DNA of 64,000 bases from a virus (lineage: Duplodnaviria > Caudoviricetes). The stretch is from the IMG/VR virus record IMGVR_UViG_3300042139_000023. One strand, written 5' to 3'. This document shows, piece after piece, positions 16,640 to 40,250 of this stretch. Under the pieces are notes generated by a model. The model saw only the letters and a program-made list of their open reading frames with translations, was not told the DNA's origin and did not search any database. The stretch's first letter is position 1. Every line of letters begins with the position of its first letter. The position numbers were made by a program, and so were the translations under genes.

Positions 16640-16852
16640 AGGCCAGAAGGCGCTGACGGATGCATGGTCCTAACCTGGGACCCAAATTCAAATTCAATTC
16701 CGCATTTGGTTTTCTACCCTGAGTGAATTTCGACAGAATTTCCCGCGAATTTTTCCGCAGGTTTTCTCGCACCCGCTCCGCTCGCACTCCCGCTCACATT
16801 CCCTTGCATATCCATGTGCATTCATTGTGCATATGTGTGTGCATTGACGTGA

Positions 16853-16907
16853 GATAGATAGCTAGTGAATAGACCCTAGATATCCCTGCATTAGCTAGCT
16901 ATCTATC
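16853..16907. repeat. Perfect 13-bp inverted repeat
   Basis: GATAGATAGCTAG (16853-16865) / CTAGCTATCTATC (16895-16907). Confidence 0.9.
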
Positions 16908-17195
16908 CCCCTGCTTTCCCTTGCTTGCATTGCTGCGCATTCCCCCTGCATTCCATCTGTTGCATTCCCTCCCACATTCCGAGTGCACGTGATGAGAGAC
17001 AGCAGATATCGAGACTCCGAATGCGTCGCTTGCTTTCCCTCGCTTTCCTTTTCCCTTGCCTCCCGCTTTCCTCTCACTGCATAGGTTCATGTGTATGTGT
17101 GTATTGGGTGTGACCAGTACAGACGAGAATGCGAAATAGCGATATCGAGATACCCGCGCATTCCCGTTCCGTGCGCTCCCGCATTCCCCCTGAAT

Positions 17196-17399
17196 TCCCG
17201 CGCGCTCCCGCTCCCGGTCACGTGCTCCCACCTGCACGCATACACACATGATCATGAGCACTGCGCATAGCGAGCGATCACCCGTTCACACGCTCCCGCA
17301 TGGCACCCGTACCCGAGTGCGCCGTACCCGCTCACGTGCTCTCACGACAGGCACCCGAGCACGCGCACCGTGCGCGCATCCCGCGCGCTCCCGCTCCCG
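17196..17399 (+). repeat. 21-bp direct repeat, 2 copies
   Basis: TCCCGCGCGCTCCCGCTCCCG at 17196-17216 and 17379-17399. Confidence 0.9.
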
Positions 17400-17925
17400 C
17401 GCGCACCGCTGCACGCGCGTGCGACGCGCGCACCCTGGCCACCCCTCCCGCTCACATGTGTACTCACGTGCTCATCTGTGCTGATCATTCCCCTCAGCTT
17501 CACATTCTTCCCACACCCTTCCCTTCCCTCTCAAATCAGACATACCTACACACATGTTCCTGATATCCGGGAGCGCGCTAGACGTGCTGCACTCCGGGAG
17601 CATTCCGAGTTTCCGCAGGTCAGCAGCATGATCCCTGCAAACTCCGACATTCGGGACAACGCTGTGACCTGCGGTTTCAACAGTTCGTTGTACCGGTTTC
17701 GAGCGTCAGAAAGCGGAGCGATCCTGACTAAATAAGTAACTAAGAGTGGTTGACCCTCACTTGCTTCTCACCCTCTGTATATGCATTGCAGGTCGCAGCG
17801 CTGACGTGCGCGTACGTGCATGATTCGGACATGTGGGAGTTATGAGCACACATGCCGCCGCCTTCCTCACTCTCGAAACCCTCCCCGCGCTGCCTGTCTC
17901 GCGTAGCTATGTCCGAGTTTGTACA

Positions 17926-17941
17926 TGTGACCTGCGTCACA
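17926..17941. promoter_or_regulatory. CRP-consensus box TGTGA-N6-TCACA (copy 1)
   Basis: TGTGACCTGCGTCACA. Confidence 0.6.
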
Positions 17942-18170
17942 CTTTTATCGATGCTTGCTACACCTACCGATTTGCTCGCTCGTTTGCTCACCGCAAATTC
18001 TTGACCCATCTGTCGTACATGTCCGTTTCGTGTCGTGAAGTCCGGTACGATCTCCATGCCTCTGACCTGCACAAACAGATTCGTTCGTCGCATCGTCGCA
18101 GGTCCAAGAGTTGCGAGAACCTTTTTCGAGAAAATCTTGAAACTCATCGTTTCCGCAGGTCAGAGCCCAA

Positions 18171-18186
18171 TGTGACCTGCGTCACA
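18171..18186. promoter_or_regulatory. CRP-consensus box TGTGA-N6-TCACA (copy 2)
   Basis: Identical 16-mer TGTGACCTGCGTCACA. Confidence 0.6.
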
Positions 18187-19348
18187 GGTTGTAGGTCCTG
18201 AACTCCGGTAGCGCTCTGACCTGCACGTTTCTTGATCACATGACACGCCGTCAGCAACCCCACACTTGCAATGGCAGCCATGTTTCTGCTTGTGTTTGGC
18301 CTGTCGCCACGACGCGGCGCCCGCTCCGGCGGGACGCGGCGCGGGGCGAGTGCAGGGGCCCGGTTCCAACCCGGGCCACACCCGCCCGGGTGTTCCTCCG
18401 CTTCACGTGGGGGGTGACCGGGGAGGGCTCACACGAACTCTGTGACGCATGCGGTTCGCCGTAGCGACGTCGGGAGGGGAAACGGGAGGCACGATCCCCG
18501 GGTGAGGCGGACGGGAGCGAAACGCGCTAGCCGTAATGGCGCGGGAAGCACTCGAATGCGGTTCCTTGTGATCCTCGGAGCCCTTTCGCACACGATCCCC
18601 GGTAACCCGGGAGTGCGGGAGCGGCGCAAACGGCAAGCCACGCGGTCCCCTAGGGGGCGCCGGAAAGCGTGGCCACTCGAACCGGTGGGAGGGGTCACCC
18701 TTTTGCCAGTCGGGAATACGGCGCACGGAGTACGTGACCACTTGCCGGAATGCCTTACAGCCGCAACCTACGCGGACAGGGAATCCGGGAATGTCACAGG
18801 AAACGTGTTAAAGCGTTAGTCCGGTTCCCGCGAGTTGCGGCGCACGCAAGTACGGCCCTCTAGTCCGGGAGGTCAACCACAAGCCACGTGGGGAAACCGG
18901 GGGAATGGTGGGGAAAGCGTGTCGAAATAGTCAGTCCGCAGCAAAACCCGTTTCACCACTGGTTCGAGCCAAACGCACTATGCGGGTACGGCATAGATGA
19001 TCACGCACTCTCCCGGGAGGGGTTCCGGGGGTGACGTGCGACGGTACGGCGGGATACCAGGGGTGTCGGAACCCTTGCCCGTGACGGACGGGAGCGCTTA
19101 GCGCTTCCGTCCCCCGGGGGATTCGGACGCGACACGTTGCGACGCGCCGGTTTCCACACGGAAATACGGGACGCGCTCTGATGTGGCGCCGTTTCCCCCG
19201 GGATGCTCCACACTCACCGTGCGGTGAGCACGAACGGACAACACGGTTTCGGTCCGGTAGGCAGGGAGGCTAGAACTCCCGTGACGCTACGACGGGGAAA
19301 CTCTGTCCGTTCTTCCCTCCGCACGGAGGTTCGGGAAGGATTCCGGCA

Positions 19349-19528
19349 ATGGTGATCAGGCTTGACAACGGCGGAACGGTGACGGTCTCGGAAAGCGGGA
19401 TCACGTACCGCCGGGGGCGCGAGATTCAGTGGCGCCCCCTCCCCGGGACGTACAGCGAATCGGCCGAATGGCTGGACACGTTGGCGAACGGGAATGCGGG
19501 AGTTCTGTTCACGTCGCGTAAGGCGTGA
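19349..19528 (+). CDS. Small hypothetical protein (59 aa, below the track cutoff)
   Basis: Hand translation MVIRLDNGGTVTVSESGITYRRG...; GGAAGGA upstream. Confidence 0.55.
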   Translation: MVIRLDNGGTVTVSESGITYRRGREIQWRPLPGTYSESAEWLDTLANGNAGVLFTSRKA

Positions 19529-19587
19529 ACTGTCGGCAGACGTCGCACACGAGAGATGCGACGCGGACAACGGAAAGCGGGAAGATC

Positions 19588-21339
19588 ATGAACGTTGCGG
19601 GCAAGGTGTTGGCGGTTTCGGGCGACGGTTTCGCTCGGATGTACGGGCAGGGTGAGCGGGGCGCGGGACACGCGGTGTTCATTCCGGCCGGTTGCCAGGG
19701 TGACCCGTTGGGCGGGAGCGGCGCCCGGATCACCCGGGCATGCGGGAGCACGCTCCCGACGGAAAAGGCGGCCGAGAAATTCCAGGGTGACAAGCGGTGC
19801 CCGAAGTGTGTCGAGTGGCTGGCCACGACGGACGGGATCGCTGCGCTCGAATCGGCCCGTGCGGAGCGTCACGCGTGGGAGTTCGGCGCGGACGACATGG
19901 CGGAACTGTTCAGCGTGGCGGAGGTGAACGGAACGGACACCCGGGAGGACTCCGCCACGGTGACCCCGGGCGAGATTGCCAAGGATGCGGCGGCGGCGGG
20001 TGACCCCGTGGGCAAGCGTGCGGCGGCCGTCAAGCGGGAGCGCAAGCGGCTTGCAGACCAGCGGGAAAAGCGGGAGGCCGCTAAGCGGGAGAACTCCGCC
20101 ACGGTGCCCCCGGCGGCGCCGGAGAGTGGCGCGGTCGGAATCACGGGACTGACGCACGCTGAGATGCGGGAGGCCACGGAGCGGTTTTACGCGAACGGTG
20201 GCAAGCCTTCGGCTGAGATCCTGGCACTTCCGGCGCCCGGAATGGTGAGCCTGGCAAGCGGGACGGTTTCCGGGAGTGCGGCCGAAATTCTGGTCTGCAC
20301 GTTCAAGGGTGAGGTTTCCACGGTCAACCCGGAGCGGACGCACGGGAAGTGCCCCGACTGCACCACGTACATTCCGCTTCTGCCCGGGGGCGCGGGAGGC
20401 AAGGAAACCGGCCCGAAGGTTTCCAAGATCAAGTGCGAAGGGACCGGCAAGGCTCCGGCGCCCGGGACGCGCGTGATGCGCGATGACCACACGGTGAGCG
20501 TGGCGGACGACTACGACGGCAAGCACTCCGGCAAGTGCCCGGAGTGCGCCCGGGTGATCGCTGTCAGCCGTGAGGGCGGCATGCGCAAGCACAACGGTTT
20601 GGAAGTGCGGGAGGACTCCGGCCCGGACGCGGACAAGATCGGCAAGCACAACGTGGGCGGGGTCGCGACTCCGGCCGGTAAGGGCCTGTCGTCCAAGTCG
20701 ATTGACACCGTGGAACACGGGAGCGTGCCCGGTGACCCTGCCTCCGCTGACAAGCGGCGCGCGGCGGAGATCGAAGAGCGGGGCGCGGACGCGCGGGAGT
20801 TCAAGGGCGGCGCGGACACGGGCGCCACGGTGCGCAAGGGTGCGCGGCTCGCACTGTCCCGGGGTCACGGTTCGGTGGACGGGAGCGCGACGACCGGGAG
20901 TCAGAACATGGCGCCCGTGCAGCCCAAGGGATGGGTGGGGGTGGCCGGTACCGGCTCCCTGCCCGCGATGGTCCGGCCCGGGATTGACCCGGAGGTGACC
21001 GGCCGTGAGTGCGTCGTCTGCGGGGAACTCCCGGAGATTGCGCACGCGGGCAAGTCGAAGGGTTGGCGGCGGCGCCACTCGTCGAAGGTGGGCGCGGTGC
21101 TGCGGGACCGTAAGGCGCAGCGGGAGGCCAAGCGCGCGGCGCAGATCGAAAGCGGGGAGATCGTTCCCGCCCCGGTCAAGCGGGAGGCTCGTAAGGCGGC
21201 GTCGGTCGGATCGTTCAGTGAGGGCAACGTGAACGGGACCGTGACGCACGCGCCCCGCCCGGAGTTCGCCCCGAAGGGGACGCGCAAGCCTGCCCCGAAC
21301 GGTCAGAAGCATACCCGCCGGAGCGGTCGCGCAGAGTAG
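19588..21339 (+). CDS. Large multi-zinc-ribbon protein
   Basis: RBS GGAAAGCGGGAAG; CPKC, CPDC, CPEC and CVVC motifs; basic C-terminus. Confidence 0.75.
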   Translation: MNVAGKVLAVSGDGFARMYGQGERGAGHAVFIPAGCQGDPLGGSGARITRACGSTLPTEKAAEKFQGDKRCPKCVEWLATTDGIAALESARAERHAWEFGADDMAELFSVAEVNGTDTREDSATVTPGEIAKDAAAAGDPVGKRAAAVKRERKRLADQREKREAAKRENSATVPPAAPESGAVGITGLTHAEMREATERFYANGGKPSAEILALPAPGMVSLASGTVSGSAAEILVCTFKGEVSTVNPERTHGKCPDCTTYIPLLPGGAGGKETGPKVSKIKCEGTGKAPAPGTRVMRDDHTVSVADDYDGKHSGKCPECARVIAVSREGGMRKHNGLEVREDSGPDADKIGKHNVGGVATPAGKGLSSKSIDTVEHGSVPGDPASADKRRAAEIEERGADAREFKGGADTGATVRKGARLALSRGHGSVDGSATTGSQNMAPVQPKGWVGVAGTGSLPAMVRPGIDPEVTGRECVVCGELPEIAHAGKSKGWRRRHSSKVGAVLRDRKAQREAKRAAQIESGEIVPAPVKREARKAASVGSFSEGNVNGTVTHAPRPEFAPKGTRKPAPNGQKHTRRSGRAE

Positions 21340-21418
21340 TCCGCAACGGTCCGGAAGTCGAAGAGCGAAACGGGCCCCGGGAGATCCCCGGGGCCCATCG
21401 GAAAGGGGAACACGGGAC

Positions 21419-22087
21419 ATGAGCACGATCACGGTTGCGCAGGGTATCGAGGACGCGCGGGAGCGCGTGACGCCGTTCTTCGAGGGACTGCGGGAGGACA
21501 TGACGGCCCACTTCTGGGAGACGTTCGGCGCGGCGGCGGCGGCCTACCGGGGCGCACGGTCGGAGGGTCCGGCGGCGGACCGGTTCGCGGGAGTGGTCGG
21601 CGAACTGATCCGGGACGCAAAGGGGACCGCGAGTGACCCCGTGCTGCGCCGTGGCGCCCCGCTCCCGGCCGAGTACGGCGCCCCCGCGCGGGAGGTCCGG
21701 GAGATCCCTCCCATGCCCCCACGTGCCCCGTGGGCGACCATGCCGACCGACGGGAGCGGGAGGCTCACCCTGCCGGAACGGATCCTGTACAGCGTGATCG
21801 GTGGCGCGTGCGCGGCGGTCCTGCTGATCCTCGGATTCCTGGTCTCGGGTGTCGGGAGTTCCCCGGACGCTCCGGCCACGGACACGCGCAACGCGGGGCA
21901 GGTGGTCACGGACGCCGACCTGATCACGCAGGGTGGCTACTGGTCATGGGAGGTCGCGGAGTCGTGCGGGATGCGCGTTCCGGCCGAGTGTGACAAGACA
22001 CTCCGGGAGGTCAACGCGGCGGCGGAGCGCTACGGCGTGCGGGTGTGGGAGGACGGAACGATCTCCCCGCTGGGACGTCAGTACTGA
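21419..22087 (+). CDS. Membrane-anchored hypothetical protein
   Basis: Single TM segment ILYSVIGGACAAVLLILGFLV. Confidence 0.75.
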   Translation: MSTITVAQGIEDARERVTPFFEGLREDMTAHFWETFGAAAAAYRGARSEGPAADRFAGVVGELIRDAKGTASDPVLRRGAPLPAEYGAPAREVREIPPMPPRAPWATMPTDGSGRLTLPERILYSVIGGACAAVLLILGFLVSGVGSSPDAPATDTRNAGQVVTDADLITQGGYWSWEVAESCGMRVPAECDKTLREVNAAAERYGVRVWEDGTISPLGRQY

Positions 22088-22185
22088 TCACGGCCGTGCG
22101 GTCCGGTCGGACTCCGCCCCGGCGGGGTTCCGGCCGAATCGTCCGGGAGTGAGGGACGAGACATCGGAACGGAGAGGATTTGATC

Positions 22186-22584
22186 ATGGGTGCTGTCACG
22201 CTGGCCAAGCTGGGGGACGACGTCCGGGAGGACTTCCCGGGGGTCGGGATGAACTCCGGCGCGGGAGCGGTTCAGTTCATCGGCGACATGCCCGCGCGTA
22301 AGGTCGACGGCCCGCTGTTGCTGGTCGCGGGCATGCGCGTGAACCTGCCGGAGTCGGTCAAGGTGCCCGGCCCCCGGCGCGTCAAGGCGGTTGCCGTGGC
22401 GATCGAGCGCGACGGATTCCGGGACGCGGACGAGACCGTGCCCAGCTACCGGGGCGTGGTGATCACCGAGGATGGGGACGAGTACCCGACCGGCCCGCGC
22501 GGTGACATGGAATCCGTGCGCCTGGCGTGGCTGCGCCTGGCCGTGGAGTCGGGGACGTTCCGCCGCATCGCCCGGATGAGCTAA
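22186..22584 (+). CDS. Hypothetical protein
   Basis: RBS GGAGAGG. Confidence 0.75.
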   Translation: MGAVTLAKLGDDVREDFPGVGMNSGAGAVQFIGDMPARKVDGPLLLVAGMRVNLPESVKVPGPRRVKAVAVAIERDGFRDADETVPSYRGVVITEDGDEYPTGPRGDMESVRLAWLRLAVESGTFRRIARMS

Positions 22585-22596
22585 CATCCGGGACGT

Positions 22597-22607
22597 GGCC
22601 TAGGTCA
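22597..22607. promoter_or_regulatory. GGCCTAGGTCA operator-like palindrome (copy 2)
   Basis: Intergenic. Confidence 0.6.
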
Positions 22608-22638
22608 GACAGGAACATCGGAAGGGAGAAACGGGATC

Positions 22639-23022
22639 ATGCAGGAATCCATGACGCGCGGTGAGTGGTGGGACGAGTCGGCCCCGTACGGGCCGAACGG
22701 GTACACGTACGGGCGCGGTGAGCGGGTGGCGAACGCTCAGGTTGCCCGGGAGATCACGTTCGACATGCAGCCGGGTGACCCGAACTGTGTCGCGCGGGGT
22801 GTCGCCGAGATGACCGACGGCCGCGTGTACATGTTCACGGTCGTGCGGGAGGAGTTCGCCCGGCACTGCAAGGCGGACGGCCGCACGCGGCGCCGGTTCG
22901 CGGCCCTGTCGCGTCAGCCGTTCCGGGAGGCCGCTTCCGAACTGATGGCATGGGAGGTCGCCGGGCACCGCATCCGCCCGGCGGACGTGCCGGAGTACGT
23001 GAGGCAGATCAACGCGCTCTGA
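22639..23022 (+). CDS. Hypothetical protein
   Basis: RBS GAAGGGAGA. Confidence 0.8.
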   Translation: MQESMTRGEWWDESAPYGPNGYTYGRGERVANAQVAREITFDMQPGDPNCVARGVAEMTDGRVYMFTVVREEFARHCKADGRTRRRFAALSRQPFREAASELMAWEVAGHRIRPADVPEYVRQINAL

Positions 23023-23029
23023 CGTCGGG

Positions 23030-23083
23030 GAGACGCCCTAGGCGAACCGGTCCGGGAACGGACCGGGGCGCCGGGAGTGCCGC
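23030..23083 (+). ncRNA. Intergenic structured element, family 2 (copy a)
   Basis: GAGACGCCCTA-[stem-loop]-GGGAGTGCCGC. Confidence 0.5.
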
Positions 23084-23146
23084 CCGGCACTGCGGGCCCG
23101 GTCACATCGGATCGGGCCCATTGGTTCGGAAAGAGAGAAGATCAAC

Positions 23147-23554
23147 ATGCGTGCAGCATTCGCGGGAATCCTCGCCGGTCTCGTCGCCCTGTTCTCGCTG
23201 AGCGGGAGTGCGGAAGCGGCCCCCGCCCGCCCGTCGGTGAAGGTGGTCAAGTCGGTCTGCGAGACCGGCCACCGGGGCATGCCGGAGTACGACCGTAAGT
23301 GCCTGAAGACCGGGACGATCCTGGACGGGGTCAACCTGTGGTTCCGGTACATCGAGGGCGGCGCGGTGAGCAAGGCCGACCGCAAGGCGTTCTGCAAGGA
23401 CGCGACCAGCACGGGCCACACCCGCGCCGGGATCATCGACGGCCTGTTCGATGTCGCGTACGACAACTACCGGAACCACAAGCTGATGCTCTCGGTGGCC
23501 GGGACCGTCGGCGTGATGGACTGCCAGCAGCTCGGGGTCAAGATCAAGAAGTAG
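23147..23554 (+). CDS. Secreted protein with Sec signal peptide
   Basis: MRAAFAGILAGLVALFSLSGSAEA|A; four Cys. Confidence 0.75.
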   Translation: MRAAFAGILAGLVALFSLSGSAEAAPARPSVKVVKSVCETGHRGMPEYDRKCLKTGTILDGVNLWFRYIEGGAVSKADRKAFCKDATSTGHTRAGIIDGLFDVAYDNYRNHKLMLSVAGTVGVMDCQQLGVKIKK

Positions 23555-26023: not shown

Positions 26024-26025
26024 TC

Positions 26026-33282: not shown

Positions 33283-33633
33283 ATGGGGACGTACGTCACC
33301 GACGGTGAGAACGAGATCGGCGTTGCCCTGACGGACTCGTGGGCGGCCGTGTGGACCGTCGACACGCAGTACATCGAGGTCATCCGGCGCGACTTCTGGG
33401 ACGAGCACAGCGAGGCGATCAAGGCGGCGGCCAAGCGGGGCCGCGACTTCACCGACGAGGACGGCCACAACGGCACCGTCGCGGTGATCAGCACGGACGG
33501 CGACCTGGACGACGAGGGCTTCCCGAAGGAGTTCGACGACGCCTCGGAGTACGTCGCCGACGAGCTGTCCTCGTGGACCAGGTCGGACGGTGGCGCGTAC
33601 GAGCGGGCCACCGTTCAGGGCTACAGCTACTGA
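33283..33633 (+). CDS. Highly acidic small protein (DNA-mimic candidate)
   Basis: About 27 D/E versus 9 K/R in 116 aa (hand count). Confidence 0.75.
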   Translation: MGTYVTDGENEIGVALTDSWAAVWTVDTQYIEVIRRDFWDEHSEAIKAAAKRGRDFTDEDGHNGTVAVISTDGDLDDEGFPKEFDDASEYVADELSSWTRSDGGAYERATVQGYSY

Positions 33634-33646
33634 CGGGAGCGGCGGG

Positions 33647-34099
33647 ATGCACGGGGAGCTGATCAGGTACACGTGGGCACCGAACCCCGGGATGGCCTGG
33701 GGTCTGGTCCATCTGTCGCAGGGCAGGGACGGCGACATGATCGGCGCCTTCGTGTACGAGGACCGCGATGCGGCCCTGAAGGGCGACAAGCGGGCCGGAT
33801 CCACGCTGTACCGGGTGGTGCGGCAGATCCGGCCCGCCGACCAGAGCACCGGAACCCCGGACGCCGGGGCCTACGCCTTCGTGTGCAGCTCAGCCACGGA
33901 GTACACCATCTGGACGAAGCCCACGGTGAACGACGTGGGCGGGAGCGAGTACGACGGGGTGTGGTCCTTCCGGGACGCACCGGCCGCCGTGGAACGCACC
34001 GGATGGGCGAACAAGGAGAACGCACGGTACGAGGGACCGGATAACCCCCGGTTCGCAACGTTCCTGCTCACGTGGGACGTGACGGAAGAGGAGAAGTGA
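33647..34099 (+). CDS. Hypothetical protein
   Basis: Co-oriented ORF; start uncertain. Confidence 0.7.
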   Translation: MHGELIRYTWAPNPGMAWGLVHLSQGRDGDMIGAFVYEDRDAALKGDKRAGSTLYRVVRQIRPADQSTGTPDAGAYAFVCSSATEYTIWTKPTVNDVGGSEYDGVWSFRDAPAAVERTGWANKENARYEGPDNPRFATFLLTWDVTEEEK

Positions 34100-34100
34100 C

Positions 34101-34661
34101 GTGGCTCAGACACTGCGCGGGATTCAGATGTTCGACCGGGGCGACCGGGTCGAGATCGGGGAGGGCGAACTGGCCACAGTCGAGCACGACATGGGCGGCG
34201 AGGTCGTCCATGTGCACCCGGACGGGAGCCGGAGCCGGTACCCGCACGACGCCATGCCGGTCGCCCGGGAGGGCGTGAAGCTGACCCGGCAGACCGAGAA
34301 CGGCGAAGAGGTTCAGGTCGAGATCTACTCGAACGGCTCCACGCACACGCTGTACGAGTGCTGCGGATACGACGAGTGCCGGGAGCTGATCCTGGTCAAG
34401 GGTCTCGGGATCGACCGGGCGGAGGCGTTCGCCGGGGACCGGTTCGTGGTCGAGGTCGAGGGTGAGCCGGTACGGATCACGGTCAAGCCGCTCGACGATC
34501 CGTCCTCGTGCATCTGGTGCTACGGGTGCGGCGACTTCCTCGCGCACGGCGAGGGCTGCGAGTGCGAAGACCGGGGCCACAACCCCGAGGCCGACCGGGA
34601 GCCGATGCGCCCGCTGGTCGTGGAGAAGGACGGGCGACTGGAACTGACGCCCTTCAACTGA
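34101..34661 (+). CDS. Hypothetical protein with SH3-like N-terminus and Cys cluster
   Basis: FDRGDRVEI...; CIWCYGC...CEC. Confidence 0.7.
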   Translation: MAQTLRGIQMFDRGDRVEIGEGELATVEHDMGGEVVHVHPDGSRSRYPHDAMPVAREGVKLTRQTENGEEVQVEIYSNGSTHTLYECCGYDECRELILVKGLGIDRAEAFAGDRFVVEVEGEPVRITVKPLDDPSSCIWCYGCGDFLAHGEGCECEDRGHNPEADREPMRPLVVEKDGRLELTPFN

Positions 34662-34664
34662 GCG

Positions 34665-34713
34665 GAGACGCCCTAGGGTTCCCGGCCGCGCGCCGGGGGC
34701 CCGGGAGTGTCGC
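34665..34713 (+). ncRNA. Intergenic structured element, family 2 (copy b)
   Basis: GAGACGCCCTA-GGGTTCCCGGC/GCCGGGGGCCC-GGGAGTGTCGC. Confidence 0.55.
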
Positions 34714-34749
34714 TGATCGGGCGATGCCGGAACGGAGAAGGAGAACGGG

Positions 34750-35340
34750 ATGACCGAGATGGACGTGCTGGAGACGGCGGGCCGCTACCGGGTGCGCCTG
34801 GTGGTTCAGCAGGACTCGCAGGACTGCAACCCCCGGACCGAACAGGACTGCAACCTGACGAACGTGATCACCCCGAAGGGTCAGCGGTACATCGACGTCG
34901 ACAAGGACGGCGGGCCGTTGGCGGAGGGGTGGGAGCGGATCGAGGACCGGTACGTGGACGCGGTCCCCGTCTTCACCCGGTGGGCCAAGATCTTCCACGG
35001 TGCCACGGTCGTCGAGGACCGGCCGCACGACGGTGCCTGGTCGATCTGGTACGTGATGCCGGAGAAGCTGGCCGAGACCACGTGGACCGCCGAGAAGGTC
35101 ATCGAGTCGGAGCAGACCGAGTACCGGCGATGGGCCGAGGGTGAGGTGTACGGCCACATCGTCGAGAAGGACGTGACCCGCATCCCCCGGGACGCCGAGG
35201 ATCGAGACGACCCGGAGCTGGACGACGAGACGCGCGAGTGGGAAGAGGTCGACTCGTGCTGGGGCTACATCGGCCGGGAGTACGCCGAGGAGGCGGCCCG
35301 CGAGGGGTTCGCCCCGTACGCCGAGGAGGCCGGGAAGTGA
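34750..35340 (+). CDS. Acidic conserved-type phage protein (W.EGEVYG...DSCWGY.G)
   Basis: Recognisable motif pattern; RBS GAGAAGGAG. Confidence 0.8.
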   Translation: MTEMDVLETAGRYRVRLVVQQDSQDCNPRTEQDCNLTNVITPKGQRYIDVDKDGGPLAEGWERIEDRYVDAVPVFTRWAKIFHGATVVEDRPHDGAWSIWYVMPEKLAETTWTAEKVIESEQTEYRRWAEGEVYGHIVEKDVTRIPRDAEDRDDPELDDETREWEEVDSCWGYIGREYAEEAAREGFAPYAEEAGK

Positions 35341-35645
35341 AGCGGGAGACACGAGAGATCGCCCCGATGACGGTGACCCGGATCGTCCGGGGCAGGCCGC
35401 CGGGGCACATCGGACCGTACTGGTTCGGCTTCGACATCAAGGTGACCGGCCCGGCGGACGGAGCGTACGTGAGCGCCCGCGCCCGCGCCCTGGCCATGAC
35501 CGACGCGCAAGCCCTGTGCAACGAGGTGAACGCGCCGGGCCTGGTGCTCCAGTTCGAGCGGGCCGGTAACTGGGACGACCCGAGACAGTACGAGTGCACG
35601 ATCAGCTTCGGTACGAGCCTTTCCGTGGAGGAGGACCCGCTGTGA
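35337..35645 (+). CDS. Hypothetical protein
   Basis: GTGA coupling. Confidence 0.7.
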   Translation: MKRETREIAPMTVTRIVRGRPPGHIGPYWFGFDIKVTGPADGAYVSARARALAMTDAQALCNEVNAPGLVLQFERAGNWDDPRQYECTISFGTSLSVEEDPL

Positions 35646-35968
35646 GCGGTGACAACGTGTGGACCCTGCCCGACGGGACGGAGCTGGTCTACCAGGACGG
35701 CGATCACGTCACGATCGACATCGACCCCGGTTCACCGTCGGCCCTGAGCCTGCCGTTCCTGAGCGGCTACGTGCGGGGGTACGACGCCGTGATCGAGGAC
35801 GGCGGCCCGGCGAAGGTGGCGTACACGCTGTACAACGTCGGGAACAACCCGCTGGTCGGCGTGCGGGAGGACCGGCTGAAGAAGACGGTCAGCCGGTTCG
35901 GCATCGGCCACGGCCGGGGTGCGCACGGGGACGGCAAGGCGTGCCACCTGTGCGGTGCGAATCTCTGA
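35642..35968 (+). CDS. Hypothetical protein
   Basis: GTGA coupling, GGAGGAGG RBS. Confidence 0.75.
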   Translation: MSGDNVWTLPDGTELVYQDGDHVTIDIDPGSPSALSLPFLSGYVRGYDAVIEDGGPAKVAYTLYNVGNNPLVGVREDRLKKTVSRFGIGHGRGAHGDGKACHLCGANL

Positions 35969-35972
35969 GCGG

Positions 35973-36020
35973 GAGGCGCCCTAGGGTGACCGGCTGCGGC
36001 CGGTCACCCGGGAGTGCCGC
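35973..36020 (+). ncRNA. Intergenic structured element, family 2 (copy c)
   Basis: GAGGCGCCCTA-GGGTGACCGGC-tgcg-GCCGGTCACCC-GGGAGTGCCGC. Confidence 0.55.
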
Positions 36021-36047
36021 TCGATCGAGCGGACGGAGAGGGAGAAG

Positions 36048-36395
36048 ATGCTGACGAGTGAGGGTCTGGCCAAGGGACGCGCCTGGGTGGCGACGCCGGA
36101 GGAGTACGAGGAGGCGGCGCAGCCGCACGTCCGGCAGCGCAACGAGCGCCGCCTGCGGGGCTTCAACTTCGAGATCATGATCGGTGGCCTATGCCGGGAC
36201 GGGGACTTCTCGTACCCCTACCCGGGCTACTACGGCACGACGGCCCCGGTCGTGGGCCTGCGCCGGGACCAGGCCGAGCACCTGACGGCCGAGCTGCTGA
36301 AGAAGCTGGCCCCTGGCGGCGAACTGCCGACCGACGCGGCCGAGCTGTTGGACTTCGTGTCCACTGTGCTCCGCAACGGCTCCGCCCCTGCCTGA
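36048..36395 (+). CDS. Hypothetical protein
   Basis: RBS GAGAGGGAGAAG. Confidence 0.8.
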   Translation: MLTSEGLAKGRAWVATPEEYEEAAQPHVRQRNERRLRGFNFEIMIGGLCRDGDFSYPYPGYYGTTAPVVGLRRDQAEHLTAELLKKLAPGGELPTDAAELLDFVSTVLRNGSAPA

Positions 36396-36398
36396 CGG

Positions 36399-36446
36399 GA
36401 GGCGCCCCAGGGTTTCCGGCTGCGACCGGAGGCCCGAGAGCGCCGC
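36399..36446 (+). ncRNA. Intergenic structured element, family 2 (copy d)
   Basis: GAGGCGCCCCA-GGGTTTCCGG..CCGGAGGCCC-GAGAGCGCCGC. Confidence 0.55.
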
Positions 36447-36620
36447 CCACGGGTGGCGCAAGTCGGAAGGGAGGTGAGTCGGATGAGCAACGACGACGAG
36501 TGGGAGAAGGCGGGCCGGGAGGCCGAGGAGATCCTGCGGAGGCTGAAGGGCTGACCCGCAGGCAGAAGCGCAGCACACCACGTGAGCACAGAGAACTGCA
36601 TCCGCGAGAAGGAGAAGAAC

Positions 36621-36749
36621 GTGACGCAGGAGACGCCCCAGACCCCGCCGGACATGATCAACGTCCCCGTCCCGGCCGACACGCCGCCGCCGGAGGCCAT
36701 CTCGGTCACCCCGGAGAACGCGCAGCAGATGGACGCCGACAAGAAGTAG
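36621..36749 (+). CDS. 42-aa Pro-rich peptide
   Basis: RBS GAAGGAGAAG; MTQETPQTPPDMINVPVPADTPPPEAISVTPENAQQMDADKK. Confidence 0.55.
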   Translation: MTQETPQTPPDMINVPVPADTPPPEAISVTPENAQQMDADKK

Positions 36750-36810
36750 CGGGCCGACGGCGCCGCTCGGGGCGGCCGGGAGACCGGCCGCCCTCCCGGA
36801 AGGGGGAGAC

Positions 36811-37179
36811 ATGCACGAACAGGATGTGTGGCGGGTGCGGTTCACCCGGGAGCACGGGGAGCTGTGGTCGCAGACCCTGGAAGGGCTGATGACCTTCCGG
36901 TACGGGTCCAGCGGGACGTGGGCGGCGCATGCGGCCCTGATCCACTGGACCCGGGCGTGCGGGGTGCCGGGCAGTGCCGACAACTACCCGATGCGGTACC
37001 TGGCCGAAGCCATCCGCATGAAGGACGGTGAGGAGATCGTTGCCGGGAAGGCGACCGCCGTCCGGGACTCCCTGAACGGGAAGTTCCTCAACGAGAACCA
37101 GGTCGACATTCTCCAGTTCACGCCGGAGGGGACGCTGATCCACACCCGGGAGAGCTGGACCGTAGCCGAAAGGCACTGA
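36811..37179 (+). CDS. Hypothetical protein
   Basis: RBS GAAGGGGGAG. Confidence 0.8.
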   Translation: MHEQDVWRVRFTREHGELWSQTLEGLMTFRYGSSGTWAAHAALIHWTRACGVPGSADNYPMRYLAEAIRMKDGEEIVAGKATAVRDSLNGKFLNENQVDILQFTPEGTLIHTRESWTVAERH

Positions 37180-37195
37180 AGGAAGGGAGTGGGGC

Positions 37196-37420
37196 ATGGC
37201 TCTCACGCTCACGAAGGAACCGACGCCGGAGATCACCGGCCCGATCACGATCAGCGCCGAGTGGAACCACTCGTGCACGTCGCAGTGCCCGAACCCGTGC
37301 CCGGCGTCGTCCCGGTTGACGCAGCCGGGCGTCACGGCCCGCATCCCGCAGCAGCCGGGGCCGCAGTCGCCCCCGCCGAAGACGCCGAAGGTCCCGCAGC
37401 AGCCGGGCCCCCGGGACTGA
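37196..37420 (+). CDS. Pro/Gln-rich small protein with PQQPGP x2
   Basis: RBS GAAGGAAGGGAG. Confidence 0.6.
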   Translation: MALTLTKEPTPEITGPITISAEWNHSCTSQCPNPCPASSRLTQPGVTARIPQQPGPQSPPPKTPKVPQQPGPRD

Positions 37421-37447
37421 GACCCGAACGAGGAGAGGGAGAAGATC

Positions 37448-37891
37448 ATGGGCGAGTGGACGATGCACGGCCAGGTGTGGGCCGACGACGGCGACGTGGG
37501 CGGGGACACGCAGATCGGGAAGGCGGCAAGCGTCCGGTTCGTGAACCCGGACTGCCCCGGCGCCCGGGTCACGGTGTACGCCTACGCCTCCGCTCCCGAG
37601 CGCTCGATCGAGGCCAAGGTCGGTTCGATCGAGGTGTTCATGGGCTACGACGCCGACCTGGGCAACCTCGGGATCGAGTCGCAGGTCTGGTTCGAGATCG
37701 ACGACGACGCCGAGGGCGACGCCGACGAGTGGGACCCGACCTGGTCGGAGATCAGGTACGAGTCGCTGGACTCGTACATCGCCCCCGGGCCGGACGAGAA
37801 GCGGGTGGCCGTGGCCGAGGCGGCGGCGCTCGCCTGGGTCCGGGCGTACGACCCCAAGAAATTCATCAACTGGGACGGCAAGCGGTTCTGA
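37448..37891 (+). CDS. Acidic hypothetical protein
   Basis: RBS GAGAGGGAGAAG; D/E-rich. Confidence 0.8.
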   Translation: MGEWTMHGQVWADDGDVGGDTQIGKAASVRFVNPDCPGARVTVYAYASAPERSIEAKVGSIEVFMGYDADLGNLGIESQVWFEIDDDAEGDADEWDPTWSEIRYESLDSYIAPGPDEKRVAVAEAAALAWVRAYDPKKFINWDGKRF

Positions 37892-37966
37892 GCCGGTGCG
37901 TTCGGGGCGGCGGGAGCTGTGGGTTCCCGCCGCCCAGTGCACATCGGACGGAAGGAGAGGGAGAGC

Positions 37967-38938
37967 GTGAAGAGGTTCGAGGACGCCGAGAAGGTCACCC
38001 CGCAGCAGCTCAAGGGCATGACCCCGACACAGGTGGACGAGCTGTTCGCCGTCGCCTGGGATCACCGGTACGAGCTGGTGGAAGAGGTGTACGCCGCCTG
38101 GAACGAGGTGCACTACGCCGTCGGTGACCGCCGGGTCAGCACGCAGACGTGGCGCCTGGGTCATCAGGAGGTGCAGGACAAGGCCGCCGGGACCGAGCGG
38201 GGCCGCAAGGCGCTCGACCGGGTGAACCGGGCGAAGGGTTCGGTCGCCGAGCTGGACGGCACCGTGCTGGCCAAGCTGGAAGCCGAGTTCGACAGCCGGG
38301 GCGGATGGTCCCGGGCCTACCTGGTCACCGATGGCCACGTGCACAGCTCGATGCACTGCTCGTCGTGCAACCGGGGCGAGTTCCCGACCCGCTTCTTCTG
38401 GATGATCGACTACTCCGGGAAGAGCATGGCGGAGATCGTCGAGGCCGCTGGGGAACGGGCCTGCACCATCTGCTACCCGGATGCGCCGGTCGCCCGCAAG
38501 GACAAGGGTGAGACGGTGAACGTACCGAAGTCGGTGATGCTGACTTCCGAGGAGATCCAACGCGACGAGGCCAGGGATGCGGAGGCCAAGCGCCGGGCGG
38601 AGAAGAAGGCCAAAGCCGCGCTGAACGCCATCACGCAGCCCGACGGCACTCCCCTGCGGGACGAGGTGGACCGGGACGGCAGGCAGAAGGGCTCGGTCGT
38701 GAAGACCGTGCGCACGGCCCGGACCGAGCTGAAGCGGCAGTGCTGGTACGCGTACGCCTGGGGCGACGACGACGGCGCTCACGAGCGGAACATCCAGCAC
38801 CTGGGCAGGGCCGTGGCCTGGAAGGAGAACGGCCTGGCGATCGGGGACGAGCCGACCGCCGAACAGATCGAAGCGGTGATCAAGCCGCTGCGGGACAAGG
38901 CCGTGAAGGAAGTCGACAAGGCCCGAGCAGAGGGCTGA
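37967..38938 (+). CDS. Conserved-type actinophage protein with Zn-binding HVHSSMHCSSC...CTICYP
   Basis: GGWSRAYLV..GHVHSS..C..C...CxxCYP motif family; function unknown. Confidence 0.8.
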   Translation: MKRFEDAEKVTPQQLKGMTPTQVDELFAVAWDHRYELVEEVYAAWNEVHYAVGDRRVSTQTWRLGHQEVQDKAAGTERGRKALDRVNRAKGSVAELDGTVLAKLEAEFDSRGGWSRAYLVTDGHVHSSMHCSSCNRGEFPTRFFWMIDYSGKSMAEIVEAAGERACTICYPDAPVARKDKGETVNVPKSVMLTSEEIQRDEARDAEAKRRAEKKAKAALNAITQPDGTPLRDEVDRDGRQKGSVVKTVRTARTELKRQCWYAYAWGDDDGAHERNIQHLGRAVAWKENGLAIGDEPTAEQIEAVIKPLRDKAVKEVDKARAEG

Positions 38939-38952
38939 AGGGGAGCGAGAAG

Positions 38953-39489
38953 ATGAACGAGACCACCATCCGCATCATCCACTGGATCTGGGGCGAGCCG
39001 AAGCTGGCCGACTTCCTGCGCGGCATCGCCGAGGGGGAGAAGATCCCGCCGCATGACGAGGCGTTCGAGTACGGGGACGACCAGCTCGCCTGCTGGATCT
39101 CCGACCTCGTCTTCCCGGAGGACCGCAGCCGGGGGATCAAGGCGTGGATCGACCTGGGCGGCAGCGACGAGCGGGCCGACGCCCTGTACGAGGCGCTGAC
39201 CGAGGGCCGCAAGACGCCCGCCGGGCGCCTGAAGTGGCTCGACGAGATGGACATCGGCCTGATCCGGGACGCCCTGCTGGGGCACAAGGGAGGATCGGAC
39301 ATCTACGTCCACTCCCTGGTCAAGCCGTACCACCCGAACAACACCTACCGGGTGCACGACTTCGGGACGGTCTACGAGCGGGGATGGACGTCGGCCTCCG
39401 GCGCCTGGGGGCTGGCCGAGAAGGACCGGCAGGTCTGCCCCAACCCGACGGTCTCACCGTGCGGGTGCACGGTGGTGCAGCGTGGCTGA
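38953..39489 (+). CDS. Hypothetical protein
   Basis: RBS AAGGGGAG. Confidence 0.75.
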   Translation: MNETTIRIIHWIWGEPKLADFLRGIAEGEKIPPHDEAFEYGDDQLACWISDLVFPEDRSRGIKAWIDLGGSDERADALYEALTEGRKTPAGRLKWLDEMDIGLIRDALLGHKGGSDIYVHSLVKPYHPNNTYRVHDFGTVYERGWTSASGAWGLAEKDRQVCPNPTVSPCGCTVVQRG

Positions 39490-39826
39490 ACTGGCCTGCA
39501 CCTGCGGTCCCGGCGATTCGGTCGCCGGGACCCGGCGGGAGATCGTCGAGCAGCGGCTGGCCGGACTCTTCAATCTCACGGTTCCCGAGGTTCATGCTCT
39601 GCTGGATCTGCTGGACCGCGCGAACGAGGCTGCACTGGACATCCCGGATGATGAACGGGACCCGGAGGGCGGGGAGACCGAACGCCAGATGGCCCGGGAA
39701 TCCGGCCGCACCGAGGGCTGGATCAAGAACTTCCTGAGCGCCTGGGAGTTCACGTCCACCGCACTGGACCAGGAACTGCACGAGAAGCACGGCCCGTGGG
39801 GCGGGCTCTTCGGCAAACAGTCCTGA
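39482..39826 (+). CDS. Hypothetical protein
   Basis: Overlap-coupled. Confidence 0.75.
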   Translation: MAELACTCGPGDSVAGTRREIVEQRLAGLFNLTVPEVHALLDLLDRANEAALDIPDDERDPEGGETERQMARESGRTEGWIKNFLSAWEFTSTALDQELHEKHGPWGGLFGKQS

Positions 39827-39842
39827 ACAACTGGAACTTCAC

Positions 39843-39853
39843 GGCCTAGGTCA
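39843..39853. promoter_or_regulatory. GGCCTAGGTCA palindrome (copy 5)
   Basis: Intergenic, followed by TAGTAT. Confidence 0.6.
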
Positions 39854-39902
39854 GTAGTATTCGAGGGCCCCGGGAGAACCGGGGCCCGGGAGGAGAGACG
39901 GG

Positions 39903-40250
39903 ATGCAGCAGATGGACGAGTACCGGCGTACGGCGGAGTTCGTGGACGTGGTGGCCGGTGAGCCGGGCCAGGTGCACACGGTGTACCGCTTCCCGAACAC
40001 GGAGCACGGTCACGGCCGGGCGGTCGAGTACCGCAACGCCTACAACGAGTCCCTGCGCGAGGCGATGGAGATCCCGAAGGCCGATCTGGAACTGGAGCGT
40101 CCCGACTGGGGCCAGCGCCGGGAGGAGTACGACCGGGCGGAGAAGGTCGAGCTGTACCGGTACAACCAGGCGGGCCTGTCGTACGTGCACCCGCCCAAGC
40201 TGATCGGGCCGAACGACCCGATGCCGACCGACTACCCGCACGAGTTCTGA
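39903..40250 (+). CDS. Hypothetical protein
   Basis: RBS GAGGAGAG. Confidence 0.8.
   Translation: MQQMDEYRRTAEFVDVVAGEPGQVHTVYRFPNTEHGHGRAVEYRNAYNESLREAMEIPKADLELERPDWGQRREEYDRAEKVELYRYNQAGLSYVHPPKLIGPNDPMPTDYPHEF

What the first reader, a model, noticed from the sequence alone, without database searches (positions are those of the whole stretch)
16787..40000. Polarised CGGGAG hexamer that flips strand at ~17.5 kb and decays with distance, a Chi-like or entry-guiding signal
Seen (approximate hand counts): CTCCCG occurs about 9 times on + between 16787 and 17450. From 17568 onward the complement CGGGAG takes over. Density is about 8 per kb at 18.4-25.5 kb, about 3 per kb at 30-40 kb, about 1.5 per kb at 40-50 kb and under 1 per kb at 50-64 kb and 1-16 kb. 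Random expectation at ~68% GC is about 0.7 per kb. The reverse complement is scarce in the enriched zone, and many copies lie inside ORFs (Arg-Glu as CGG GAG, Gly-Ser as GGG AGC). If the flip point is a genome end, both ends carry the motif in the same orientation relative to the terminus. Known: Chi and KOPS are polar motifs read by end-processing or translocating enzymes; I know of no Chi equivalent for actinobacterial AdnAB. Inference: the phage loads its first-entering DNA with oriented sites that attenuate a host end-resection nuclease, recruit a protective or translocating protein, or orient replication. An mRNA-level role (SD-like GGGAG) is the alternative.
Basis: partly seen in the sequence, partly recalled or inferred. 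Interest (0 to 1): 0.85.

Follow-up and report, generated by a model that had tools for sequence, protein, structure and literature searches.

The report
Polar CGGGAG gradient at phage genome end
A family of very large Streptomyces phages writes one six-letter DNA word, always on the same strand, hundreds of times into the 20-45 kb next to one physical end of the genome and removes it from that strand everywhere else; this looks like a directional DNA signal whose reader is unknown.

Summary
The window is a cluster-BM-type Streptomyces phage. Its 1.04-kb terminal repeat maps to 16673-17712.

- **Enrichment.** CGGGAG (core CGGGA, then G or C) stands 111:10 (+:-) in 18.3-38 kb, 12 times the rest of the genome, and decays with distance from the terminus.
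- **Not a codon artefact.** Codon-preserving shuffles give 42 against 82 observed. Arg-Glu is spelled CGGGAG in 55 of 72 cases, against 22 of 146 elsewhere.
- **Purge elsewhere.** Outside the array the same strand is depleted about 5-fold in genes of both orientations. The other strand is neutral. That points to a DNA-level signal read in one direction, not an mRNA signal.
- **Conservation.** The pattern recurs in four sequenced BM phages and five metagenomic relatives, down to 52% terminase identity.
- **Host.** Streptomyces chromosomes show no skew or excess of the word, so a host Chi or KOPS is not supported.
- **TraB/FtsK-like pump.** The phage's own pump is an unlikely reader. Its DNA-reading domain differs in one relative that keeps the word.

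The scan has noted short word arrays beside TraB-like genes in other actinophages, but not a graded array anchored at a terminus.

The parts
16673..17712 (.). Equivalent of the 1,038-bp direct terminal repeat. The physical genome ends of relatives map to its two borders.
   Evidence: BLAST against both ends of Streptomyces phage Frankenweenie. Repeat length and read-pile-up ends are published for Frankenweenie, Satis and JustBecause.
16787..17450 (-). Nine CGGGAG on the minus strand in non-coding, pyrimidine-rich repeat DNA. A BM-specific reverse cluster.
   Evidence: There are 3-10 copies in the BM phages. No such cluster is seen in G065, G066 or G068.
17568..17600 (+). Two forward CGGGAG just inside the inner border of the repeat.
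   Evidence: One or two forward copies lie at the same place (903-923 bp from the end) in all four BM genomes.
17713..19348 (.). Non-coding, low-GC leader. An operator-like repeat zone (17.7-18.3 kb) comes first, then eight forward CGGGAG (18471-19089).
   Evidence: Partly conserved in G065.
18401..26000 (+). Peak of the array: 59 forward against 5 reverse copies, 7.8 per kb.
   Evidence: In the first 6.5 kb of genes, observed over codon-shuffle expectation is 3.0.
26001..38000 (+). Shoulder of the array: 52 forward against 5 reverse copies, 4.3 per kb.
38001..56000 (+). Decaying tail of the array, 1-1.7 per kb, at about codon-shuffle expectation.
19349..64000 (+). Uninterrupted array of small plus-strand genes that carries the word on its sense strand. 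It runs on to about 68.5 kb in window coordinates. The 19 tested by Pfam have no family.
   Evidence: Own gene calls, which agree with the Frankenweenie annotation. Pfam gave no credible family for 19 of these proteins.
1..16672 (+). Part of the rest of the genome, where plus-strand CGGGAG is purged: 3 copies in 16.7 kb against 11 of the complement.
   Evidence: The same holds in complete relatives.

Best explanation
CGGGAS (CGGGA followed by G or C) is a selected, strand-polar DNA word. It marks the quarter of the genome next to one physical terminus in a family of large prolate Streptomyces siphoviruses.

Shown here:
- Codon choice and even dipeptide choice are bent to write the word.
- Density falls steadily with distance from the terminus, inside a single co-oriented gene array.
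- Elsewhere in the genome the same DNA strand is purged of the word whichever way the genes run.
- The other orientation is neutral everywhere.
- The word itself is unchanged across very distant relatives.

Inferred: only one orientation is ever read. The only genome-wide one-way process established for phages with defined ends is the packaging/ejection axis.

By analogy with lambda, P22, SPP1 and T7, packaging would start at the end near the terminase gene. That would make the array end the last packaged and the first ejected.

Favoured mechanism: the word is read by the DNA motor on this axis. That could be the terminase nearing the end of its run, with the word acting as a cumulative brake or as priming for termination before the exact cut at the repeat. 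Equally, it could be a motor or polymerase that runs inward along the first-ejected DNA and is loaded or paced by the word. In either case stray copies elsewhere are costly false signals, which explains the purge. The reader protein is not identified.
For: Selection at the nucleotide level:
- 82 observed against 41.7 in the shuffle (z 9.5).
- Arg-Glu dipeptides are 1.9 times expectation and are spelled CGGGAG in 55 of 72 cases, against 22 of 146 elsewhere.
- One-substitution neighbours are not enriched, and synonymous alternatives are depleted: CGCGAG 0.6x, CAGGAG 0.3x, AGGAG 0.6x.

Terminus anchoring: the repeat maps to 16673-17712, and ends are published for relatives.

Gradient: observed/expected falls 3.0, 1.9, 1.4, 1.5, 1.7, 1.3, 1.1, 0.75 in successive 6-8 kb bins of one co-oriented gene array.

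One-orientation reading:
- Right of about 48 kb in four complete BM genomes, top-strand copies are depleted in plus-strand genes (8-12 against 41-49, z about -6).
- They are also depleted in minus-strand genes (4-7 against 20-24, z -3.2 to -4.6).
- Bottom-strand copies are at expectation.
- In minus-strand genes, my sum of the block counts over six lineages gives about 43 top-strand copies against 111 expected, and 150 against 160 for the other strand.
- An unbiased Fisher scan of all 5- to 7-mers for DNA-strand polarity returns only CGGGA-family words at the top (p 1e-19 to 1e-21).

Conservation:
- Copies are kept in 62% of cases against 35% for average hexamers (window against Satis).
- Density is kept in DNA that cannot be aligned.
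- The same word array is found in G065, G066, G067 and G068, where terminase identity falls to 52% and only 50 of 285 genes are shared. G064, an 80-kb fragment without the array region, shows only the same-strand purge.

Other points:
- Terminase, portal and other core proteins are the parts conserved across all of these genomes.
- Copies are spaced as a Poisson process and spread evenly along genes.
- T5, T7 and SPO1 show nothing comparable: best non-homopolymer words reach z 7-11 against 25-32 here.
Against: - No sequence-reading step by a terminase is known that uses hundreds of hexamers over 45 kb. The precedents (lambda cosQ, pac sites) are one or a few sites.
- The direction of packaging and the end that enters first are inferred by analogy, not shown.
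- The array always coincides with the sense strand of the early gene array. A reader on rightward transcription complexes therefore cannot be excluded.
- Intergenic copies often sit at the 5' foot of hairpins whose 3' arm pairs through G-U. That looks like an RNA feature.
- The same-strand purge is weaker in G065 and absent in the minus-strand genes of G067.
- Gene calls are my own simple caller, not curated annotation.
Confidence: 0.4

Rival explanations
1. Chi-like attenuator. The word stops or switches a helicase-nuclease that enters at the exposed first-injected end. The enzyme could be host AdnAB, or the phage's own conserved UvrD-type helicase together with its Cas4/RecB-family nuclease.
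For: - The geometry fits: dense words just inside the terminus, all in the orientation met by an enzyme moving inward.
- A density that decays with distance is what falling penetration probability would select.
- In cluster BM the repeat also carries an inward-pointing cluster for the other end.
- A UvrD-like helicase and a Cas4-family nuclease are among the 28 proteins with matches in all four large relatives.
- SPO1's terminal region is enriched in AGCGG, which I recall as the B. subtilis Chi.
Against: - The host chromosome lacks both Chi hallmarks. Observed/expected is 0.85-0.91, and leading against lagging strand counts are 263:237 and 287:274.
- It does not explain the 5-fold purge of the same orientation over the other 140 kb.
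- The reverse cluster in the repeat is not seen in G065, G066 or G068, and the array starts only 2-6 kb behind the leader in G066 and G068.
Confidence: 0.2
2. Signal at the level of transcription or RNA. The word acts in the nascent early RNA or on the non-template strand. It could be a processivity, anti-termination or pacing mark for rightward-moving RNA polymerase (perhaps T7-like entry driven by transcription). Or it could be a target for an RNA-binding factor or nuclease that sets early transcripts apart.
For: - The array is always on the sense strand of the long early gene array, in all nine genomes.
- Non-coding DNA of the zone carries about twice the coding density. Intergenic copies are often at the 5' base of hairpins with G-U pairs, which only make sense in RNA.
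- Every minus-strand block lies downstream of a converging plus-strand array, so a purge of top-strand words could guard against antisense read-through.
Against: - Minus-strand genes purge the antisense word as strongly as far plus-strand genes purge the sense word, yet do not purge their own sense word. That is a DNA-strand rule, not an mRNA rule.
- Copies are uniform along genes.
- The classical SD word AGGAG is depleted in the zone, and real ribosome-binding sites read AGGGAG.
- The gradient runs inside a single transcription direction.
Confidence: 0.17
3. Loading or orienting word (a KOPS/SRS/clt analogue) for the phage's own TraB/FtsK-like DNA translocase.
For: - All BM phages encode a 433-aa homologue of pIJ101-type Tra proteins: PHROG 17958 E 8e-42, 27-38% identity to small Streptomyces plasmids.
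- Its C-terminal winged helix is about 85% conserved where the motor is about 40%.
- TraB reads direct 8-bp repeats (PMC4447253).
- Purge of one orientation is typical of KOPS.
Against: - G066 keeps the identical word array, but its TraB-like protein (686 aa, membrane anchor) has an unrelated C-terminal helix-turn-helix.
- No TraB-like gene was found in G067, which is 88% complete.
- Woodruffvirus phages with FtsK-like genes have no such array.
- The non-permissive orientation is not purged inside the array.
- The gene lies about 100 kb from the array.
Confidence: 0.06
4. Site for a strand-specific nick or base modification, or a decoy or orientation trick against an orientation-sensitive host defence (type III, type ISP or BREX-like). 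The word is a 6-bp asymmetric site with A at position 5.
For: - The form of the word resembles type III and BREX sites (from my own knowledge).
- T5 carries nicks at fixed sites in one strand only (from my own knowledge).
- CGGGAG runs below its Markov expectation in all five other phage genomes where that could be computed, and GGAG-containing words are several-fold below host density in most Streptomyces phages tested.
- Three conserved glycosyltransferases and a methyltransferase are in the core set.
Against: - Avoidance of collision-type restriction predicts one orientation over the whole genome and no enrichment. Here the two arms are opposed and one is enriched 12-fold.
- The zero count in TP1604 and Xkcd426 is a purge of the 4-mer GGAG, not of CGGGAG.
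- No read-level data on nicks or modification could be had.
Confidence: 0.1
5. Compositional or codon-usage by-product of a horizontally acquired, Arg-Glu-rich early region.
For: Zone proteins are somewhat richer in Arg, Glu and Gly, and the third-codon-position GC skew is positive in the first 12 kb.
Against: - The shuffle controls.
- The specificity against one-substitution neighbours.
- The density in non-coding DNA (9.9 per kb).
- Maintenance in non-homologous genes of distant relatives.
- The strand-specific purge elsewhere.
Confidence: 0.02

Closest known systems
Chi sites (RecBCD/AddAB) and their loading into phage or terminal DNA
   Same: A short polar word, read from one side only. 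Many dispersed copies with random spacing. It sits where a DNA end is exposed.
   Different: There is no excess or replication-oriented skew in the host chromosome. There is a steep gradient from one terminus. The same orientation is purged from the rest of the genome. No reader is known (no Chi is known for AdnAB, from my own knowledge).
KOPS / SRS (FtsK, SpoIIIE) and clt / TraB recognition repeats of Streptomyces plasmids
   Same: A G-rich 6-8 bp polar word. One orientation is counter-selected. The phage does encode a Tra/TraB homologue with a winged-helix C-terminus.
   Different: The host chromosome is not polar for the word. The array spans 20-45 kb at a terminus, not about 0.5 kb beside the gene. 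The word stays the same where the translocase's DNA-reading domain is replaced (G066).
Polar packaging signals read by a translocating terminase (lambda cosQ/cosB, pac sites, P1 pac hexamers)
   Same: Cis-acting, dependent on orientation, located at the genome end and read by a one-way motor. False copies would be harmful.
   Different: Those are one or a few sites within a few hundred bp. Here there are more than 100 hexamers in a graded field written through coding sequence.
Strand-biased type III sites in T7 (EcoP15I) and other restriction-site avoidance
   Same: Orientation-specific depletion of a short asymmetric word in a phage genome.
   Different: T7 has a single orientation and no enrichment. 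Here the two arms are opposed and one is enriched 12-fold.
Stoperators of cluster A mycobacteriophages; T4 RegB GGAG sites in early mRNAs
   Same: Many dispersed asymmetric sites, co-oriented with transcription, that distinguish gene classes.
   Different: Stoperators are 13-bp intergenic repressor sites that follow the direction of transcription. RegB sites lie in ribosome-binding sites. Here the rule follows the DNA strand, most copies are inside genes, and spacing is random.

Membership tests
Chi (host helicase-nuclease regulatory sequence) | Over-represented in the host genome | tested here: not met
   Observed/expected is 0.85 and 0.91 (maximal-order Markov) in 2 x 400 kb of two complete Streptomyces chromosomes. 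The word ranks 2283 of 2376 and 2093 of 2386 hexamers.
Chi (host helicase-nuclease regulatory sequence) | Skewed to the leading strand of the host chromosome | tested here: not met
   Leading against lagging strand: 263:237 and 287:274, on both sides of dnaA.
Chi (host helicase-nuclease regulatory sequence) | Active orientation faces an enzyme entering from the DNA end | tested here: inconclusive
   All array copies share one orientation relative to the near terminus. Which strand a reader would use is unknown.
Chi (host helicase-nuclease regulatory sequence) | Attenuates AdnAB/RecBCD-type nuclease in vitro | not testable with these tools
   This needs a biochemical test.
KOPS/SRS-type translocase guide | Polarity on the host chromosome converging on the terminus | tested here: not met
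   No skew in either replichore of two Streptomyces genomes.
KOPS/SRS-type translocase guide | Non-permissive orientation counter-selected on both arms | tested here: inconclusive
   The far arm is purged 5-fold. Inside the array the reverse orientation is not purged: 7 against 5.8, and in Satis 12 against 4.5.
clt / TraB recognition repeats | Word co-varies with, or is tied to, the translocase's C-terminal DNA-reading domain | tested here: not met
   The winged helix is conserved within BM, G064 and G065. It is replaced by an unrelated one in G066, which keeps the CGGGAG/CGGGAC array.
clt / TraB recognition repeats | Short cluster of direct repeats next to the tra gene | tested here: not met
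   The array is 20-45 kb long and about 100 kb from the gene.
Terminase cos/pac-type signal | Polar cis-site at the packaging terminus | tested here: met
   The array starts 0.9-1.8 kb from the mapped end and has a single orientation.
Terminase cos/pac-type signal | Bound or sensed by terminase; required for correct termination | not testable with these tools
Terminase is conserved at 50-81% across all carriers.
Restriction-site avoidance with orientation bias (type III-like) | One orientation genome-wide and no local excess | tested here: not met
   The two arms have opposite orientations and the left arm has a 12-fold excess.
SD-like or early-mRNA signal | Follows the mRNA sense strand and sits near starts | tested here: not met
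   The purge follows the DNA strand in minus-strand genes. Copies are uniform along genes. Ribosome-binding sites read AGGGAG, and AGGAG is at 0.6x.

The most novel reading that the evidence does not exclude
The graded field of one polar hexamer is a positional code. A DNA motor (the terminase, or an entry-side motor) reads cumulative word density to sense how near it is to the genome end, or how fast to go. This would be a distance-to-terminus gradient written through about 100 genes, and a kind of cis-signal not described for any virus.
Probability: 0.25. Interest if true: 0.92.

Novelty: new variant of a known kind. Interest (0 to 1): 0.78.

Why it matters
Polar DNA words such as Chi and KOPS are among the few cases where a short sequence steers a DNA motor. 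All known examples come from cellular chromosomes or from single phage sites.

Here a whole phage family has rewritten the codons, and even the amino acids, of dozens of genes to build a one-strand gradient from a genome end. It has also cleansed that strand elsewhere. That implies strong, continuing selection by an unidentified reader.

It would also explain why the early proteins of these phages are so rich in Arg-Glu. The system can be worked on directly, because Satis, Kela, JustBecause and Frankenweenie are cultured on laboratory Streptomyces strains.

Tried and rejected
1. **Host Chi or KOPS.** No skew and no excess in two complete Streptomyces chromosomes.
2. **TraB/FtsK-like protein as reader.** It looked attractive. 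It was then undercut by G066's unrelated C-terminal domain with the same word, and by Woodruffvirus phages that have FtsK-like genes but no array.
3. **CGGGAG as a general restriction target.** The zero counts in TP1604 and Xkcd426 turned out to be a total purge of the 4-mer GGAG/CTCC.
4. **Type III or ISP orientation avoidance.** The two arms are opposed and one is enriched.
5. **Replication strand asymmetry.** Third-position GC skew follows gene sense, not the DNA strand.
6. **SD-like reading.** Rejected.
7. **Function of zone proteins.** No credible Pfam or PHROG family for the 19 early-array proteins tested. The only hit was a weak sub-threshold MrpH_C match (E 0.0055).
8. **Sigma-70-type promoter scan of the leader.** No hit.
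9. **Public reads.** Only assembled contigs are held, so ends, nicks and strand could not be read. A soil RNA library holds a few 170-290-nt pieces of the region, which is not evidence of transcription.
10. **Literature.** No paper mentions this word in phages.
11. **T5, T7 and SPO1.** Scanned for comparable local polar words. Nothing of similar strength.
12. **Periodicity or pairing of copies.** Spacing is Poisson-like.

Full report
**What the DNA is.** The window is the reverse complement of bases 5235-69234 of a 168-kb IMG/VR viral contig that is 89% complete. It is about 87% identical to Streptomyces phage Frankenweenie and about 75-80% identical to Kela, JustBecause and Satis. These are the cluster BM prolate siphoviruses, with genomes of 184-200 kb. 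Their physical ends were fixed from read pile-ups, and they carry direct terminal repeats of 1,038-1,049 bp (PMC10652959 and PMC6687918). Aligning both ends of Frankenweenie to the window places the repeat at 16673-17712. The contig is therefore an assembly through a collapsed repeat. In window orientation the linear genome begins at 16673.

To the right of the repeat lie a 1.6-kb non-coding leader of low GC and then an unbroken array of about 128 small plus-strand genes, running to about 68.5 kb. The 19 of these proteins that I scanned have no credible Pfam family.

| Region | CGGGAG on + | CTCCCG on + | Forward per kb |
|---|---|---|---|
| 18.4-26 kb | 59 | 5 | 7.8 |
| 26-38 kb | 52 | 5 | 4.3 |
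| 38-50 kb | 20 | 4 | 1.7 |
| 50-64 kb | 15 | 8 | 1.1 |
| 1-16.7 kb | 3 | 11 | 0.18 |

- Nine CTCCCG lie at 16787-17445, and the first forward copies are at 17568 and 17595.
- Against the rest of the contig the zone is enriched 12-fold (111 against 8.3).
- The word is sharply defined. CGGGAG is at 12.6x, CGGGAC 5.9x and TGGGAG 5.5x. CGCGAG, CAGGAG, CTGGAG and the classical SD word AGGAG are at 0.3-0.6x. The core is CGGGA, followed by G or C.

**It is not a codon or dipeptide artefact.**
- Shuffling synonymous codons within the zone gives 41.7 +/- 4.3 against 82 coding copies.
- Recoding the same proteins with the codon usage of the rest of the genome gives 24.4.
- Arg-Glu dipeptides are 1.9 times their expectation. 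They are spelled CGGGAG in 55 of 72 cases. Elsewhere the figure is 22 of 146, with CGCGAG preferred.
- Non-coding DNA of the zone carries 9.9 copies per kb.
- Copies are spread evenly along genes and spaced as a Poisson process, with a median gap of 120-150 bp.
- Measured against local shuffles, the excess falls steadily with distance from the end inside one co-oriented gene array: 3.0, 1.9, 1.4, 1.5, 1.7, 1.3, 1.1, 0.75.

**The key new result is a strand-specific purge elsewhere.** In the rest of the contig, plus-strand CGGGAG is depleted in plus-strand genes (9 against 43) and also in minus-strand genes (7 against 16). The complement is at expectation.

I fetched the four complete BM genomes and ran the same gene caller and shuffle on them. 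Right of about 48 kb:
- Top-strand copies are 8-12 against 41-49 in plus-strand genes.
- Top-strand copies are 4-7 against 20-24 in minus-strand genes.
- This holds in every gene block.
- Bottom-strand copies sit at expectation.

A Fisher scan of all 5- to 7-mers asked for polarity that follows the DNA strand rather than gene sense. Only CGGGA-family words came out on top (p 1e-19 to 1e-21, against 1e-4 for the next unrelated words). Third-position GC skew shows no general strand asymmetry. So only one orientation of this one word matters. It is favoured near one terminus and disfavoured everywhere else. This argues for a DNA-level signal read in one direction rather than an mRNA signal.

**Conservation.**
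- All four BM phages show 14-33 forward copies per 5 kb over the first 20 kb, a decay to about 45 kb, and then 0-2 per 5 kb for 140 kb.
- Window copies are retained more often than average hexamers: 79% against 61% (Frankenweenie), 64% against 47% (Kela) and 62% against 35% (Satis).
- Satis keeps 86 copies in the zone, although only 23 are shared with the window and only 44% of the zone aligns.
- Metagenomic relatives found through the terminase and the TraB-like gene carry the same array. It lies on the sense strand of their early gene array, behind a low-GC leader. These are G065 (260 kb), G068 (199 kb), G067 (167 kb) and G066 (153 kb; terminase 52% identical; only 50 of 285 proteins shared).
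- An unbiased scan for locally concentrated hexamers puts CGGGAG first in G068 (z 23), and GTCCCG and CTCCCG first in G066 (z 16).
- The purge in minus-strand genes recurs in G064, G066 and G068. It is weak in G065 and absent in G067.
- The reverse cluster inside the repeat is peculiar to cluster BM.

**Who reads it? Host readers.** Two complete Streptomyces chromosomes were sampled at 400 kb each, on both sides of dnaA. They show no replication-oriented skew (263:237 and 287:274) and no excess (observed/expected 0.85-0.91). The hallmarks of a host Chi or KOPS are therefore absent. Other Streptomyces phages have no such array. Neither do T5, T7 or SPO1.

**Who reads it? The phage's own TraB-like pump.** The phages encode a 433-aa homologue of the Tra/TraB DNA pumps of pIJ101-type plasmids. 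Its winged-helix C-terminus is far better conserved than its motor. TraB reads direct 8-bp repeats (PMC4447253). This was my leading idea until G066. Its TraB-like protein has a membrane anchor and an unrelated C-terminal helix-turn-helix, yet its word array is the same. A reader that is unchanged over this depth of divergence is more likely a core phage machine or a conserved host enzyme. Twenty-eight proteins have matches in all four large relatives. They include terminase, portal, capsid and tail proteins, a RepB-type primase-helicase, a UvrD-type helicase, an SNF2 helicase, a Cas4/RecB-family nuclease, three glycosyltransferases, an endolysin and an O-methyltransferase.

**Most likely mechanism.**
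- Shown: the word is a selected, DNA-level, single-orientation signal. It is graded from one physical end and purged elsewhere.
- Inferred: The one genome-wide one-way process established for such phages is the packaging/ejection axis.
- Inferred by analogy: the terminase gene lies near the opposite end. In lambda, P22, SPP1 and T7, packaging starts near the terminase genes. If that holds here, the array end is last packaged and first ejected. This also fits its load of small genes pointing inward.
- Favoured (about 0.4): the word acts on a motor on this axis. Either it brakes or primes the terminase as it nears the exact cut, or it loads or paces a motor or polymerase running inward along the first-ejected DNA. 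Stray copies elsewhere would be costly false signals.

**Rivals.**
- A Chi-like attenuator of an end-entering helicase-nuclease (0.2). It fits the gradient and the BM repeat cluster. It does not fit the purge or the host statistics.
- A transcription- or RNA-level mark on rightward complexes (0.17). It fits the constant sense orientation and the intergenic hairpins with G-U pairs. It needs pervasive rightward read-through to explain the purge in minus-strand genes.
- Nick, modification or defence-related sites (0.1).
- TraB guidance (0.06).
- Compositional artefact (0.02).

**Novelty.** I found no description of this word, or of any terminus-anchored graded polar word field, in phages. The closest known things are Chi, KOPS/SRS/clt and polar cos/pac signals. 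It shares polarity and motor logic with them. It differs in scale, in gradient, in the genome-wide purge of the same strand, and in having no identified reader.

Noticed in passing
L177-L183 (Streptomyces phages TP1604, 57 kb, and Xkcd426, 64 kb): The tetranucleotide GGAG/CTCC is completely absent from both strands of both genomes. Streptomyces DNA carries about 15 per kb. This looks like a total 4-mer purge, which must also reshape ribosome-binding sites. Mischief19, phiC31 and Sebastisaurus strongly deplete GGAGG.
   Followed up: partly
L305 (Bacillus phage SPO1, first 13 kb): AGCGG is locally enriched in the terminal region: 29 forward and 17 reverse, against 6.3 expected from the rest of the genome. 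GAGCGG is also enriched: 15 against 0.9. From my own knowledge, AGCGG is the B. subtilis Chi word.
   Followed up: no
L168:838-2139 (-) = G000:C1 about 145.9-147.2 kb; Frankenweenie gene 156: A lytic 185-200 kb phage encodes a homologue of pIJ101-type conjugative Tra/TraB pumps. Between BM subgroups the motor domain is about 40% identical, while the C-terminal winged helix is about 85% identical with an invariant TGCG..QA..FLRSF stretch.
   Followed up: partly
window 23555-36450, intergenic spacers: Hairpins recur directly after stop codons. Their 5' foot is (C)GGGAG and their 3' foot is TTCC(AG), so they pair through G-U. They look like RNA processing or stability elements between early genes.
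   Followed up: no
window 17926-17941 and 18171-18186: Two identical perfect palindromes, TGTGACCTGCGTCACA, lie 245 bp apart in the leader among repeats of TTTCCGCAGGTCAG. This is probably the operator and promoter zone of the early array.
   Followed up: no
window 19349-64000, gene starts: Ribosome-binding sites follow an unusually long purine consensus, GGAAGGGAGAA(N4-8)ATG. It uses AGGGAG, not the polar word CGGGAG.
   Followed up: no
L167:5351-7186 (Frankenweenie gene 79): The conserved Cas4/RecB-family exonuclease gene carries a LAGLIDADG domain insert (an intein or intron-encoded endonuclease).
   Followed up: no
window 17321-17601: A soil metatranscriptome library holds a 280-nt contig that spans the strand-flip point inside the terminal repeat. 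DNA carry-over cannot be excluded.
   Followed up: no
Streptomyces and Actinoplanes phage genomes L173-L203: GC-rich palindromes (GCCGGC, CCGCGG, GGCGCC, CTCGAG, GAGCTC, CTGCAG) are reduced to 0-4 copies where 25-255 are expected. This is classical restriction-site avoidance on a very large scale.
   Followed up: no
This does not affect any count reported.
   Followed up: no
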